A DNA stretch of 64,000 nt from NCBI RefSeq assembly GCF_026571515.1, contig NW_026853088.1, positions 62,001 through 126,000 on the forward strand. The letters run 5' to 3'. A program made the position numbers. Source of the DNA: Ruditapes philippinarum (lineage: Eukaryota). Within the stretch, counting starts at the first letter, position 1, and every line of letters begins with the position of its first letter. Shown one piece after another: positions 45,701 to 51,700 of the stretch.

Positions 45701-48700
45701 TGATATGGGCAGCTATATAGAATCTGATCATCATAGAAATAAATCTGACACTCAGTATATACAAGGAATATGTTATGTGAATATGATTTTCAAATAGATA
45801 ATTTTACCTTTCCTTTTATATCATTGGAAGATTGCAGCGCAGCCATTAACCCTAGACCAGCTGCTACCCCGACCTCAGCTATCAAGTTATGACCGCACGC
45901 ATGCCCAATGGACGGTAAGGCATCGTACTCGCTGATGAAAGCAATATTTGGCGTAGATGAGGTGCTAATAAATGTTGCCCGGAACGCAGTTTCCATTTTG
46001 TAAGACCTTTCAGTCTGAAATTTAAGGTGTTTTTTTTCAAAGTACAAATGTAATCAGTTAATGTAGATAACATTCTGTTATATCATCTCGTGTATCCCAT
46101 CGGCAATGTATAAAACTAATGTTTATGCAATTGATGTATATGCACATTTGTGACTGTGACAACTAATAATTGACAAGCTATATAAACATGTTCAAATCGA
46201 TTATTAAAAATAATCATACCTGAAAACCATGTTTCTCAAGGAACGTGGTAAGAAGTTTGTGAGCGTGTTTTTCTTCAAGTCCTAGCTCAGGATTGCTCCA
46301 TATACTCCCACTGATCTCTTTCAGTTCTGGTGCAGCTCTGTCAATAGCATCACATGCAGTCTTTTTCGCCTTTTCTATAGCTGATTCCATGTGTAATGTA
46401 TTATTTCGCAGCGTTCTTAATAAATCTACATTAAAACTAATCCGATTTACTTTTGCAAACAGAGATGTAGTATATATATATTTGATGTAATCGTGAACTG
46501 AAAACTATGTCACATATTCCATGAGATTATAATATTTTGATTGCACATATAGATCTACTTAAAAATGGAATGTCACGTTAGCTTAAGATAAAGATACAGC
46601 ACTACGTGTTTATTTACGCATCTATTTATTTTCTCTATCACGAGTTAATTAAAACCCATTGGTTATATTAAACACAGTAAGAAGTTGTTCAAGTGTCTTT
46701 ACGTACCGTTTTTTATCACTCCCAAATTATCCAATTTGAGTTGTGCATATGAATTAACGAGTCCTTATGATATGTAAGTGGATAGTGAAATTTTTTAGCA
46801 AGACATCCAAACCATTTGAAAACTCATTTTGTGTAAACATGATACAATGTATATAAATTATCATATGTTTTTATGACTTGGCAAAGCTTATGATCAAAGT
46901 TGTAAAATAAGTACATGTATAATTATGCTTCTTATCTGTAGCATACCACTTTTGATTGTAAATAATATTTCTAATAGACTGTCCAAAACTTTTTTCTCAC
47001 GGATATTGATGTGAAACGTGAACTACACAAACAGGAGTATAAAATGTTATTTTTAGGAGAATTTTAATTGAATTTGGTATATTTGAATGCATGCTTGGGT
47101 AATTATAACAAGCGAGTGTATATATGTTATGCGAGTACATGTATATTTGAAGATTATCTGCACACATGTTTACAGTGTGTCTTACATATGTGTAGATATA
47201 AATGTATTAAAATTTCATAAAAGTATTGATGTTCCAATCTAAGCAGAATGTATGTTAATTTTACCTTCGAAAATAATAAATATGCAGATAACAAGCACAC
47301 ATTAATTTAAACCACTAACAGCGATCTCTGTAGCAAAGCAAAGGGGGGCCACTGCGTAGGTGTTTACAAATTTTGCCGCGTTGTGTCCCGTTTTATGTAC
47401 CGTATACGAGCGGTACCACTAAAATACGCAACGGAGATTTTTTGGCGCAACGGACGCAACGGGCGCAACGGAGATATTTTTTTTTAAAAAACCGGCACAA
47501 CGCCTTTTTTTAAAGTCAATGTGCTATATTTAAGCATCTAAAATGATTGTTTAGCACTATTAAGAAAGCATGTTTTAAAATGTTTCATAAATTGTATATG
47601 TCTAATGGCACTGAAGGGTTATATGCCTGGCGAAATGGAAATTTCATGGCGCAACGGAGATATTTTTTTTAGAAAAAACCGACACAACGCCTTTTTTAAA
47701 GTCAATATTGCTGAATTTGAGCATCTAAAATGATTGTTTAGCACTTTTAAGTAAGTATGTTTTAAAATGTTTCATAAATTGTATATGTTTACACTGAAGG
47801 ATTATATATGCCTGGCGAAATGGAAATTTCATGGCGCAACGGAGATAATTTTGGAAAATCGGCACAATGTTTGTACTAATATATGAAATTAATTAACACC
47901 AATGTTATTTGAATAAATAAATTAAAAAAAAAATATTTAAAAAACTTAATCGTATATCAAATAATCAAATAGCTGCAATGTTGATGTTGTAAAGGGTAGT
48001 GTGCCGGAGAAATGGACATTTGGTCTGCGCAACGGAGATTTTTTTTTTTTTTTTTGGCGCAACGGAATTTAAAAAGAAAACAATGTTTGTCCTAATTAAG
48101 TTGTAATAAATTATGAAGAAGTAAATCATTAAAGATATTAACTGAATTACTCAAGTGGTGTAATAAAAGTCTGTTTTATTAATTTAAAAATGGAATTAAA
48201 TACGTTTTTATCGTTATGGCTAACACTGAAAGACAAGTATGGATTTTACAATCTGTTTCATTTTTTCCCTTTCAATCTGTTAGTACTCGTTTAAATTTGA
48301 TCCTATAATTTTTTAACTGTAAAAATTATTTTCTTATTTCTGCTGCCGGGAATTTTTAAGCAAATCACTTTATTTGTTAAAAGCATGACCAGTAGCAAGC
48401 AATTTGCTAACCATATTACATTATCTTTTTAATAATGATTGAAATATTTTATGCATTTTTAAAATTAAAAATAGTATAGTAACTATACAAAATATTAATT
48501 GTTTGATAAAGTTATTAAAATAGTAAAACGACATGCATGTTACTCAGAATTTGCTGTTCTTTCTATTGCCATTTTAAAACAGTAAAAAACATAAAATAAT
48601 ACTTCCCCGATCAGAAAACCCCGTTGAAATCAAATGCAGCTACTGTTTATTTAGCGAAACAACAGCAAATATGGTGATTTGAAGAATGTTTATCACGGGT

Positions 48701-51700
48701 GTTAAAGTACCGATAATTAAATTTACCAATGACACGTGGTTGATGTTTATTGGACACACGTTTTCACACCATTTAGAAAATGTGATTAAGAGGAACATGT
48801 ATTGACTTTAAGGTATTAAAATATTTTTTCTATAACTTGTTATTGTCGAAAATATTGCCTTTGAAGCTTATAAGCCAATATTTCACTCAAACTATGAGAA
48901 AAAATGGTATATGAAATGTGAGACGTAAATAAAACTTTTTGGAGTCTGAATCCACCACTGATGACGGTCAAGTTTTCTATTACAAGTGTTAAAAACATTA
49001 TTAAACACCCGTGCCATACACGTGCACGATACGTTGCTAATTGCTAACAATTCTCGTGTAATTGATTACCTTTTGTCAATATCATAATTATGAAATATTT
49101 GGATTGCTTTTGATGAAATATACAATGTATACGCAACAAACAATTATTGAAAAAGTACACAATGATTAATGAAAGATAATAAATTAATAAAATAATATAA
49201 TATGATAAAACTGTTATGATAATCCCCGTTGCGCCGAAATAGTCCAATTTGCCGTAATTTAAATATCTTTTACAATATCCTATTTTCAACATTCAACTTG
49301 TTATTGTCGAAAATATTACAATTGTTAAAAGCATTAAACACCCGTGCCATACACGTGCCTATGCATTGCTAATTGCTAACAATTCTCGCGTAATTGATTA
49401 CCTTTTGTCAATATCATAATTATGAAATATTTTGATTGCTTTTGATGAAATATACAATGTAAACACAACAAACAATTATTGAAAAAGTACACAATGATTA
49501 ATGAAAGATAATAAATTAATAAAATAATATAATATGATAAAATTGTTATGATAATCCCCGTTGCGCCGAAATGTGTCCATTTCGCCGTAATTTAAATATC
49601 TTACAATATCCTATTTTCAACATTTTCTAAAATAAAGGAAAGTAAATCATTTTTAAAAGACTGTTACTTATTATTCTCAAATTCTTAAGTTATGTTCAAA
49701 CATAAGATCTACCCATTATGCAAATCTTCATTTTCCGTTGCGCCGAAATTATATCCATTTCGCCGTCCATTTAAAATCTGATATATTCAGTATTCTACCT
49801 AATAAAATCAAAACTTATACAGTATATGTAAAAATGTGTATCAACAATACCAACTTATATGATTATTTTATGTTTTAGACATAAAAAAAACAGTACAAAG
49901 TTTTGAAAATAAAATCTCCGTTTCGCAATAATCCATCGGCACAACGGAGTTTATGAAAGGTATTACAACAATACAAGTATCTTATCTTAATAAACTATCT
50001 TATCTTACAATGAATGTTTATAATCAAAAAAAAATACTGAACATTGATTCTGTAATATCAACATATGACTTTATTTAGTATATACTAATGCAAATTCATT
50101 TAAAAAGTATGTATAGAAAAGCTATCACAGTACTTTTCGTAAAAATAACAAATTGAACAGGAAAAAAATGAACAGATTTGTAAAAATCCATACTTGTCTT
50201 CCAGTGTCAGCCATAACGATAAAAAACGTATTTAATTCCATTTTTAAATTAATAAAACAGACTTTATTACACCTCTTCAGTTATTCAGTTAATATCTTTT
50301 AATGATTTACTTCTTCATATTACTACTTAATAAGGCCATTTAAAATTCCGTTGCGCCAACAAAAAAAAATCTCCGTTTGCGTAGACCAAATGTCCATTTC
50401 GCCGCACACAATCCTTTACAACATCAACATTGCAGCTATTTTTGATTATTTGATATACGATAAAGGTTTTAGATTTTTTTTTAAATTTATTTATTCATAT
50501 TAACATTGGTGTTAATTAATTTCATATATTAGTACAAACGTTGTGCCGATTTTTCCAAAATTATCTCCGTTGCGCTATGAAATTTCCATTTCGCCAGGCA
50601 TATATAATCCTTCAGTTAAAACATATACAATTTATGAAACATTTTAAAACATACTTACTTTAAAAAGTGCTAAACAATCATTTTTAGATGCTCAAATTCA
50701 GCAATATTGACTTTAAAAAAAGGCGTTGTGTCGGTTTTTTCTAAAAAAAAAATATCTCCGTTGCGCCATGAAATTTCCATTTCGCCAGGCATATAACCCT
50801 TCAGTCGCCATTAGACATATTACAATTGATGAAACATTTTAAAACATACTTACTTAATAGAGCTAAAACAATCATTTTAGATGCCTTAAATATAACACAT
50901 TGACTTTAAAAAAAAGCGTTGTGCCGGTTTTTCTAAAAAAATATCTCCGTTGCGCCCGTTGCGTCCGTTGCGCCAAAAAATCTCCGTTGCGTATTTTAGT
51001 GGTACCCGTATACGAGCGTTTATCAAATTGCACCGAAGTATTCCGAAAGCGGATCATGTGACGTTTTGTAATGTAAACAAACCGGTCACAAACTATTAGA
51101 AGTTACTAGGAACAATGAAACTCTTGATTGCTATTGTGTTGTTCGTTTACTCACTTGCACAGGGAGAAAGATACACTCCAACATGGGAAAGCATTGATGC
51201 AAGACCGCTGCCATCGTGGTATGATGAATCAAAACTCGGAATCTTTGTTCACTGGGGTATATTTTCTGTTCCCAGTTTTTCTTCAGAATGGTTTTGGCAT
51301 GACTGGAAAATGTCAAAACTTCCGGGAATTGAACAGTTCATGCAAGAAAATTACAAACCAGGTTTTACATATCCAGATTTTGCAAAGGACTTTTCAACAG
51401 AATTTTTCTTTGCCGATCAATGGGCAAGAATATTCAATTCATCAGGTGCCAGGTAAGAGGCATTATATGATATGATGTAGACAATAGTCTTTGCATTGAA
51501 GGAGTCTAGGTATACTATAATGAGAAAGTGTACTAGATGAATAATTTTTTTATGTGAAAATTTAGATACTGACCTGCTGACATGTTCGGCCAGGCATTAG
51601 GCTGGCCAAGTTACGGCCCATGGGCGGGTTCCCGAGGGACAGATATTTCGAACCGCAAATGTGTCAGATACTTTTTTCTTGCATATTCTACCATATTCAA

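What the first reader, a model, noticed from the sequence alone, without database searches (positions are those of the whole stretch)
47401..51017. 3.6-kb foldback transposon inserted about 100 bp upstream of the fucosidase ATG, splitting a head-to-head gene pair
Seen: ~870-bp inverted arms built from tandem subunits, a perfect 11-bp TSD (implying a fairly recent insertion) and no coding capacity. Removing the element leaves about 1.1 kb between the PM20D2 and FUCA start codons. Established: long modular TIRs with 9-11-bp TSDs typify Mutator/foldback elements, which promote rearrangements. Inference: it separates FUCA from upstream or shared regulatory DNA, may be a polymorphic cis-regulatory allele, and could form a large cruciform or dsRNA.
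Basis: partly seen in the sequence, partly recalled or inferred. Interest (0 to 1): 0.7.

Follow-up and report, generated by a model that had tools for sequence, protein, structure and literature searches.

The report
Non-coding foldback transposon beside clam fucosidase
A 3.6-kb non-coding "foldback" DNA transposon sits between two divergently oriented genes of a clam genome, just upstream of a fucosidase gene; it is an ordinary member of a known kind of mobile element, and its effect on the genes is untested.

Summary
Window 47412-51006 (3595 bp) is an inverted-repeat element flanked by a perfect 11-bp direct repeat (47401-47411, 51007-51017).

- **Arms:** 854 and 842 nt, 96.5% identical at aligned bases, with the first 65 nt of both tips identical.
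- **Tips:** each starts with the palindrome GGTACC, then four CGCAACGG copies, then 187/193-bp tandem units.
- **Motif:** CGCAACGG occurs 18 times in the 64-kb window, always inside the element. It lies on + in the left part and on - in the right part.
- **Coding capacity:** none.
- **Setting:** it lies 1010 nt from the ATG of a PM20D2-like M20 peptidase gene (- strand) and 97-108 nt from the ATG of an alpha-L-fucosidase gene (+ strand). The host is a venerid-like bivalve, not human.

Best reading: a non-autonomous foldback cut-and-paste transposon, moved in trans by a transposase that binds the repeated motif. The Mutator-like superfamily is the most likely home, on TSD length and a Muta1-like tip design. 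This is unproven, because no transposase-bearing copy or second copy could be sought.

Regulatory effects, polymorphism and dsRNA production are untested; only the capacity to form a long hairpin is shown. I rate it a new member of a known kind, of modest interest.

The parts
47401..47411 (.). Left copy of the 11-bp target-site duplication CGTATACGAGC. It contains the 8-bp palindrome CGTATACG.
   Evidence: the 11-mer occurs only at 47401 and 51007 in the window.
47412..48265 (+). Left inverted arm, 854 nt.
   Evidence: it pairs with 51006-50165, 96.5% identical at aligned bases and 90.7% counting gap columns. The first 65 nt are identical to the other tip.
47412..47417 (.). Terminal palindrome GGTACC at the left tip.
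   Evidence: GGTACC alone is not rare in the window: 7 hits against 5.4 expected.
47427..47471 (+). Tip array of four CGCAACGG copies, three of them in a 9-bp tandem.
47462..47852 (+). Tandem subunits of the left arm: period 187 bp, 2.1 copies, 90% matches.
47629..48035 (+). Three bipartite sites GGCGAAATGGA-N8-10-GCGCAACGG at 47629-47657, 47814-47842 and 48006-48035. These are candidate transposase-binding sites.
   Evidence: the invariant alignment columns fall on the two half-sites.
48266..49225 (.). Motif-free, A+T-rich loop with no similarity to the rest of the window.
49000..49624 (.). Internal 332-bp tandem duplication. The core copies 49029-49240 and 49361-49572 are 97% identical. Each unit carries one bipartite site in right-arm orientation.
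   Evidence: (families D1, D15-D17).
49226..49764 (-). Three extra bipartite sites on the - strand (49226-49253, 49558-49586, 49735-49764). They extend the motif-bearing right part to about 1.78 kb, against about 0.66 kb on the left.
50165..51006 (-). Right inverted arm, 842 nt, with 193-bp tandem subunits (50539-50956, 2.2 copies), a tip array of four CGCAACGG copies (50947-50991) and the terminal GGTACC (51001-51006).
51007..51017 (.). Right copy of the 11-bp target-site duplication.
46217..46390 (-). First coding exon candidate of the M20 peptidase (PM20D2-like) gene, with its ATG at 46390. The splice donor is not mapped. Further exon candidates run down to 42455.
   Evidence: M20_dimer matches on two exons. 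The best solved relative of two exons is Xaa-Arg dipeptidase, 7yh4/8xzc.
51115..51453 (+). First coding exon candidate of the alpha-L-fucosidase gene, starting with a signal-peptide-like stretch. Further exon candidates run to about 58629.
   Evidence: (Alpha_L_fucos, E = 3e-35 on this exon) and for the other exons.

Best explanation
The feature is one insertion of a non-autonomous, foldback-type class II (cut-and-paste) DNA transposon. It encodes nothing. A transposase made elsewhere in the genome would recognise the palindromic tip (GGTACC) and the many copies of the subterminal motif. That motif is CGCAACGG, often paired with GGCGAAATGGA 8-10 nt upstream. All copies face the same way relative to the nearer tip. 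The transposase would bring the two ends together, cut the element out and join it to a target cut with an 11-nt stagger; repair of that stagger made the 11-bp duplication.

The Mutator-like (MULE, including Phantom/Foldback) superfamily is the most likely home. The grounds are the TSD length and a tip design like that of the mosquito MULE Muta1: a palindromic terminal motif followed by short subterminal repeats. The element landed in the roughly 1.1-kb divergent intergenic region of a PM20D2-like gene and an alpha-L-fucosidase gene.

Shown: the anatomy, the duplication, the lack of coding capacity, the confinement and orientation of the motif, and the position relative to the genes. Inferred: mobilisation in trans, the motif as the binding site, and the superfamily.
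For: - **Duplication:** a perfect 11-bp direct repeat lies exactly at the ends of the inverted arms and occurs nowhere else in the window.
- **Arms:** 854 and 842 nt, 793 matches against 29 mismatches, tips identical for 65 nt.
- **Not a composite:** the 26-nt tip occurs only at the two outer ends, even allowing 3 mismatches, so the arms are not themselves separate elements.
- **Motif confinement:** CGCAACGG has 18 of 18 window hits inside the element, against 0.18 expected. Eight lie on + within 47427-48065 and ten on - within 49226-50991. The 14-mer GGCGCAACGGAGAT, with up to 2 mismatches, has 16 of 16 hits inside, against 0.03 expected.
- **Motif conservation:** in an alignment of 9 bipartite sites from three otherwise dissimilar kinds of subunit, the invariant columns fall on the two half-sites.
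- **CpG:** observed/expected is 1.47 and 1.61 in the arms against 0.63 for the window, so the CpG-bearing motifs have not decayed.
- **No coding remnant:**
- **Literature, passages read:**
  - Muta1 has a 10-bp palindromic terminal motif GGGTCTACCC and nine 12-bp subterminal repeats. These strengthen transposase binding, are needed for cleavage and raise excision. A natural non-autonomous derivative has 3 and 7 repeats at its two ends. [quoted passage not shown]
  - The foldback families Tm1 and Tetris have TSDs of 8-10 bp and were assigned to Mutator (PMC3169594; PMC4079207).
  - Rice MULEs are reported with 9- and 11-bp TSDs (PMC4178011).
  - MULEs were found in all mollusc genomes analysed, and 39 autonomous MULE consensus sequences were curated (PMC10294476).
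Against: - Only one copy was seen. No other copy or fragment exists in the 64-kb window, so repetition in the genome, the normal proof of a transposon family, is not shown.
- No transposase of any kind lies in the element or the window.
- An 11-bp TSD is at or beyond the upper edge of the ranges given for animal foldback/MULE families: 8-10 bp in PMC5499845 and PMC4079207, and mostly 9 bp in PMC3169594. The repeat can also be read as 13 bp.
- TSD length and tip design are indirect guides to the superfamily. Foldback architecture has arisen outside Mutator, for example Galileo in the P superfamily (PMC3688188 and PMC3573991, abstracts in the listing).
- Two searches of predicted-protein collections with frames from the arm and the middle found nothing. 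This is weak evidence, because such short frames may never have been predicted as proteins.
Confidence: 0.75

Rival explanations
1. It is a foldback transposon, but of a superfamily other than Mutator: P/Galileo-like, hAT, or a superfamily not yet described. The same cut-and-paste logic would apply, with a different transposase.
For: Foldback architecture is convergent. Galileo has long, internally repetitive TIRs yet belongs to the P superfamily (abstracts of PMC3688188 and PMC3573991 in the listing; PMC4079207 passage). No transposase is linked to this element. Eleven bp lies above the 8-10 bp quoted for MULEs in PMC5499845.
Against: From recall, not checked here: P and hAT elements make 7-8-bp duplications, and hAT tips follow a YARNG pattern. 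The tips here are GGTACC and the duplication is 11 (or 13) bp. Among superfamilies I know, only Mutator is quoted as reaching 11 bp (PMC4178011).
Confidence: 0.18
2. It is not a mobile element. It would be a local inverted duplication made by replication template switching or break repair, or an assembly artefact such as a chimeric palindromic long read.
For: Only one copy is seen. Another stretch of the window, 35.4-37.05 kb, looks like homopolymer-inflated consensus, so local assembly quality is not uniform. Of the 26 gap events between the arms, 20 are changes in homopolymer length.
Against: Neither process predicts a perfect 11-bp direct repeat exactly at the outer ends of the arms. Nor do they predict an oriented array of a conserved bipartite motif. 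The arms differ by 29 substitutions and by 13-nt and 5-nt indels that are not homopolymer changes, so they are not a read folded back on itself.
Confidence: 0.04
3. Beyond being an insertion, the element now acts on its neighbours. It could separate FUCA from upstream control DNA, supply an outward-reading promoter or part of the 5' UTR, or give rise to hairpin RNA.
For: It sits 97-108 nt from the FUCA ATG, inside what was a 1118-nt divergent intergenic region. As a single strand the element folds at -1510.6 kcal/mol, against -651 to -671 for 3 shuffles. In that fold 796 of 854 left-arm bases pair with the right arm, and the longest perfect helix is 72 bp. A rice MULE-like upstream sequence is discussed as raising expression of the neighbouring PsbS1 gene (PMC4178011; abstract and passages).
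Against: Nothing here measures transcription. The FUCA exon candidates are open and cover the Pfam profile from position 8 to 345, apart from about 269-301, plus the C-terminal domain. So the gene has not visibly decayed. The 97 nt kept next to the ATG may hold the core promoter, or an untranslated first exon may lie upstream, which would put the element in an intron; an AG lies 6 nt before the ATG. Most transposon insertions have no demonstrated function.
Confidence: 0.15

Closest known systems
Muta1 and its non-autonomous derivative Muta1NA1 (Mutator-like element of Aedes aegypti; PMC5499845, passages read)
   Same: The tip is a short palindrome starting with GG (GGGTCTACCC there, GGTACC here). 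It is followed by many copies of a short subterminal repeat. The two ends can carry unequal numbers of repeats. Non-autonomous forms exist. Muta1 is classed as a foldback element.
   Different: The Muta1 TIR is 145 bp with 12-bp repeats, and its TSD is 8 or 9 bp. Here the arms are about 850 bp, the short motif is embedded in 187/193-bp units, and the TSD is 11 bp. No sequence similarity was tested, because I held no Muta1 sequence.
Tm1 (Mutator/Foldback family of root-knot nematodes; PMC3169594, abstract and passages)
   Same: Composite TIRs of variable length built from motifs. Many MITE-like non-coding members. Arm-to-arm identity averages 93.15% there, against 90.7-96.5% here.
   Different: Tm1 TSDs are 8-10 bp and mostly 9. 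Transposase-encoding Tm1 members are known. Here there is one copy, with an 11-bp TSD and no known partner.
Tetris (foldback element of Drosophila virilis; PMC4079207, passages)
   Same: TIRs with an outer domain, a variable number of roughly 220-bp tandem repeats and an inner domain. The middle is variable and non-coding. No autonomous copy was found. It was assigned to Mutator from TSD length alone, which is the same kind of argument used here.
   Different: Its TSD is 8-10 bp. Its tandem repeats have also spread as satellite DNA, which could not be examined here.
Galileo (P superfamily, Drosophila; abstracts of PMC3688188 and PMC3573991 in the listing)
   Same: Long, internally repetitive TIRs with multiple transposase-binding sites.
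   Different: It encodes a P-type transposase with a THAP domain. Its TSD is shorter (7 bp, recalled and not checked).
Helentron-derived non-autonomous elements carrying tandem repeats in bivalves (PMC7492417, abstract in the listing)
   Same: Bivalve host, with tandem repeats carried inside a non-autonomous mobile element.
   Different: From recall, those elements have no long inverted arms and make no target-site duplication. Here there are 850-bp arms and an 11-bp duplication.

Membership tests
Foldback-type transposons (structural class) | Long terminal inverted repeats that make up a large share of the element | tested here: met
   Arms of 854 + 842 nt out of 3595 nt (47%).
Foldback-type transposons (structural class) | Arms built from tandem subrepeats | tested here: met
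   187- and 193-bp units at 2.1-2.2 copies, and a 9-bp unit x 3 at each tip.
Foldback-type transposons (structural class) | Flanking target-site duplication | tested here: met
   Perfect 11-bp direct repeat. This is longer than the 8-10 bp reported for Tm1 and Tetris.
Foldback-type transposons (structural class) | Several dispersed copies in the genome | not testable with these tools
   No second copy in the window. No collection of eukaryotic genomes was available. Two indirect protein searches found nothing.
Mutator-like elements (MULE superfamily) | Target-site duplication of 8-11 bp | tested here: met
   Eleven bp is inside the '9 to 11 bp' range of PMC4178011 and one above the '8-10 bp' of PMC5499845. 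A 13-bp reading is also possible.
Mutator-like elements (MULE superfamily) | A MURA-type DDE transposase in the element or in an autonomous copy with the same tips | not testable with these tools
   None in this copy and none in the window. An autonomous partner could not be sought.
Mutator-like elements (MULE superfamily) | Long TIRs (over 100 bp) carrying transposase-binding repeats | tested here: inconclusive
   Long TIRs with an oriented, conserved repeated motif are present. Binding was not tested.
P superfamily (Galileo-like) or hAT | Target-site duplication of 7-8 bp (recalled) | tested here: not met
   The duplication is 11 bp, or 13 bp.
Helentron/Helitron non-autonomous elements | No target-site duplication and no long terminal inverted repeats (recalled) | tested here: not met
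   Both are present here.

The most novel reading that the evidence does not exclude
This could be a young copy of a foldback family that is still mobile and undescribed in a venerid-like clam. Its transposase would make an unusually long (11-bp) staggered cut. Signs of youth are tips identical over 65 nt, motif arrays that are intact and not depleted of CpG, and a perfect duplication. On this reading the insertion is polymorphic and has rewired a shared bidirectional promoter, either by donating the fucosidase start site or by producing hairpin-derived small RNAs.
Probability: 0.12. Interest if true: 0.5.

Novelty: new member of a known kind. Interest (0 to 1): 0.25.

Why it matters
Foldback elements cause inversions and deletions in flies and nematodes, and their subterminal repeats are a model for how transposases assemble on long ends. 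A clean, intact clam example with a clearly defined bipartite motif would help anyone annotating bivalve repeats or looking for its transposase. Three literature searches listed no paper whose title or abstract start describes a bivalve, mollusc or clam foldback element. In PMC5139131, the one such paper I checked for the word, 'foldback' appears only in its citation of the Tetris paper. As a single insertion next to two housekeeping-type genes it is ordinary genome content unless it proves polymorphic with an expression effect.

Tried and rejected
- **Other copies in the window:** the 26-nt tip with up to 3 mismatches and blastn of the whole element against the rest of the window found only poly-A/T matches.
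- **Other copies through predicted-protein collections:** the 63-aa arm frame and the 82-aa middle frame gave no hits. This is uninformative rather than negative.
- **Exact look-up of the neighbouring intronless B-box/NHL protein**: not in the collection.
- **RNA families and tRNAs:** one sub-threshold mir-297 match outside the element (25.4 bits against a gathering score of 90, E = 0.41), which I dismissed. No tRNA.
- **Composite of two separate elements:** rejected, because the tip motif occurs only at the two outer ends.
- **Reading the 8-bp palindrome in the TSD as an extension of the TIR:** this needs a 3-nt indel and leaves no duplication, so it was rejected in favour of the perfect 11-bp direct repeat.
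- **TCATGTGA E-box at 51054-51061** as a sign that the fucosidase core promoter was retained: the motif has 11 window hits against 3.67 expected, so one hit carries no weight.
- **Paper on the Phantom subclass of Mutator (PMC2927773):** not held.
- **Tandem-repeat scan of 35.0-37.1 kb:** nothing found.
- **Not run:** the bacterial promoter/terminator scan, structure prediction, complex prediction and the phage, plasmid and E. coli collections, because they do not apply to non-coding animal DNA.

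
Full report
**Source and ground rules.** The window has no N. It is not human. An intronless B-box/NHL gene at 37057-38793 has its best named relative in the hard clam Mercenaria mercenaria (81% identity over 97% of the query). Mya arenaria and Dreissena polymorpha are next among named hits (14 proteins at E <= 1e-10 among 4946 candidates). Mercenaria is a venerid bivalve. The window is 33% G+C. Spliced gene models were examined exon by exon, by Pfam and by comparison with solved structures. 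The joined-exon step was left out, so no full-length protein of either neighbouring gene was searched.

**The observation.** The sequence shows an inverted-repeat element at 47412-51006 (3595 bp).
- A global alignment of the left end with the reverse complement of the right end stays above about 80% identity per 50 columns out to roughly 48265 / 50165, then collapses.
- Over those limits the arms are 854 and 842 nt, with 793 matches, 29 mismatches (9 transitions, 20 transversions) and 52 gap columns in 26 events.
- Twenty of the 26 gap events are homopolymer length changes. The first difference is at alignment column 66, so the tips are identical for 65 nt.
- CGTATACGAGC flanks the element directly at 47401-47411 and 51007-51017 and occurs nowhere else in the window on either strand.
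- One further base matches on each side, so the repeat can be read as 11 bp (tips GGTACC) or 13 bp (tips GTACC/GGTAC). Both readings keep the tips symmetric.
- The duplication contains the palindrome CGTATACG, which is why blastn runs the inverted match a few bases into it.
- In the whole window the only inverted self-matches of 60 bp or more, apart from this element, belong to a small 235-bp palindromic element present twice.

**Internal anatomy.**
- Each tip starts with GGTACC, followed within 60 nt by four copies of CGCAACGG, three of them as a 9-bp tandem.
- Then come 187-bp (left) or 193-bp (right) units in 2.1-2.2 copies, and an inner domain that still pairs (pairs I2 and I9).
- Corresponding units of the two arms are more alike (96-98%, I1, I5, I7) than neighbouring units within an arm (86%, D3; 82-90%). 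The arms therefore correspond position by position.
- CGCAACGG occurs 18 times in the 64-kb window against 0.18 expected. All 18 are in the element: eight on the + strand within 47427-48065 and ten on the - strand within 49226-50991.
- At nine places the motif is preceded, 8-10 nt upstream, by GGCGAAATGGA. When these nine sites are aligned with 30 nt of flank on each side, the invariant columns fall on the two half-sites. The flanks differ among the three kinds of subunit: the arm units, the third arm site and the middle units.
- The middle is not symmetric. It has a motif-free A+T-rich stretch (48266-49225). That is followed by a 332-bp tandem duplication (97%) and a further unit, which together add three bipartite sites in right-arm orientation.
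- CpG observed/expected is 1.47 and 1.61 in the arms and 1.25 in the middle, against 0.63 for the window.

**Coding capacity.** The longest stop-to-stop frame overlapping the element is 82 aa (46 frames of 40 aa or more). None of the 9 frames of 62 aa or more and none of the 82 frames of 25-61 aa match Pfam at E <= 0.01. No Rfam family reaches its threshold in 46000-52000, and there is no tRNA in the window.

**Surroundings.**
- *Fucosidase gene (+ strand).* Exon candidates run from an ATG at 51115 to about 58629. They match Alpha_L_fucos profile positions 8-109, 109-146, 141-187, 190-235, 237-269 (weak, below the curated cut-off) and 301-345, plus Fucosidase_C. Positions about 269-301 were not located.
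- *M20 peptidase gene (- strand).* Seven exon candidates run from an ATG at 46390 down to 42455. Two match M20_dimer, one above the curated cut-off and one below it. Two have Xaa-Arg dipeptidase (7yh4, 8xzc) as their best solved relative.
- *Geometry.* The two genes are head to head. There are 1010 nt from the peptidase ATG to the left TSD copy and 97 nt from the right TSD copy to the fucosidase ATG. That gives 1118 nt between the ATGs before insertion.
- *Further left.* An MCM2-like gene lies at 16.9-33.3 kb on the - strand.
- *Transposase.* No transposase domain was found among the 190 frames of 62 aa or more across the window (75, 115).

**What it is.**
- Long inverted arms built of tandem units, a flanking duplication, a non-coding middle and unequal ends define foldback-type transposons, as described for Tm1 (PMC3169594), Tetris (PMC4079207) and Muta1 (PMC5499845).
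- Muta1 is the closest worked example. It has a palindromic 10-bp terminal motif starting with GG and nine short subterminal repeats. In vitro and in yeast these repeats strengthen transposase binding, are required for donor cleavage and raise excision. Its natural non-autonomous derivative has 3 and 7 repeats at its two ends.
- By analogy, I take the GGTACC tip and the oriented CGCAACGG / GGCGAAATGGA arrays to be the recognition sites of a transposase supplied in trans. I take the 11-bp duplication to be the footprint of its staggered target cut. This is inference; no binding or movement was tested.

**Which superfamily.**
- Mutator-like is the best guess. One paper quotes 9-11 bp for MULE duplications and reports rice MULEs with 9- and 11-bp duplications (PMC4178011).
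- Most foldback elements are said to belong to Mutator (PMC4079207).
- MULEs occur in all mollusc genomes analysed, with 39 curated autonomous consensus sequences (PMC10294476). In a repeat table of the M. mercenaria genome paper, two columns give 1838 and 895 MULE/MuDR copies (0.10% and 0.04%); I did not read what the two columns stand for (PMC8905726).
- Against this, animal MULE and foldback families are quoted at 8-10 bp, foldback form is convergent, and no transposase is linked to these tips.
- I put about 0.55-0.6 on Mutator, within a 0.9-plus belief that this is a transposon insertion.

**What does not follow.**
- A perfect 11-bp duplication says little about age. At the arms' 3.5% substitution divergence, an 11-bp pair would remain identical in about half of cases or more.
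- Arm divergence is not a clock either, because the arms of non-autonomous foldback elements already differ when copied (Tm1 average 93.15%).
- Some of the arm indels may be homopolymer errors of the assembly. A nearby stretch at 35.4-37.05 kb looks homopolymer-inflated.

**Effects on the genes.**
- None was measured.
- As a single strand under RNA parameters, the element folds at -1510.6 kcal/mol against -651, -671 and -667 for three shuffles. In that fold 796 of 854 left-arm bases pair with the right arm, and the longest perfect helix is 72 bp. A read-through transcript could therefore form long double-stranded RNA, and the DNA has cruciform potential.
- Whether the element is transcribed is unknown. 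So is whether the fucosidase start site lies in the remaining 97 nt, inside the element, or upstream of it with the element in an intron.
- The fucosidase exon candidates are open, so the insertion has at least not been followed by visible decay of the gene.

**What stayed unchecked.**
Copy number, an autonomous partner, the empty site in relatives and polymorphism could not be examined.
- Supplementary tables of the Tm1 and Tetris papers, which list individual duplications, were closed.
- Three literature searches listed no paper whose title or abstract start describes a bivalve, mollusc or clam foldback element. I saw only the listings, plus passages of PMC5139131, where 'foldback' occurs only in a citation of Tetris. 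This is not proof of absence from the literature or from repeat databases, which I could not query.

**Verdict.** The interpretation as a foldback transposon is well supported. The Mutator assignment is plausible but unproven, the recency inference is unsupported, and the regulatory ideas are untested. It is a new member of a known kind, with interest about 0.25.

Noticed in passing
window 9473-9707 and 55267-55501: Two copies, 87% alike, of a roughly 235-bp element that is itself a near-perfect palindrome. Its tips are GAGTCGCGTCA... / ...TGACGCGGCTC, and each copy is flanked by a 4-bp direct repeat (ATAT; AAAT). The second copy lies in a fucosidase intron. It is probably a MITE of a superfamily that makes 4-bp duplications, and it is unrelated in sequence to the foldback element.
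   Followed up: partly
window 35400-37050: About 1.6 kb made almost entirely of short homopolymer runs (AAAA, TTTT, CCCC, GGGG), with frames open on both strands over the same coordinates. It looks like homopolymer-inflated, low-quality consensus or very unusual low-complexity DNA, just downstream of the B-box/NHL gene.
   Followed up: no
window 37057-38793 (- strand): Intronless 578-aa frame with a B-box zinc finger and a weak SGL/NHL-like beta-propeller match, both below Pfam's curated cut-offs. It is a TRIM-like protein of the kind expanded in bivalves (that expansion is recalled). Relatives are 81% identical in Mercenaria mercenaria and 55% in Mya arenaria. The exact sequence is not in the protein collection.
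   Followed up: partly
window 16898-33290 (- strand): MCM2-like replication helicase gene in many exons, with MCM2_N, MCM_N, MCM_OB, MCM, MCM_lid and WH_MCM2 matches in order.
   Followed up: no
window 51054-51061: TCATGTGA E-box between the element and the fucosidase ATG. From recall it resembles sites bound by MiT/TFE factors at lysosomal genes. The motif TCAYGTGA has 11 hits in the window against 3.67 expected, so one hit means little.
   Followed up: partly
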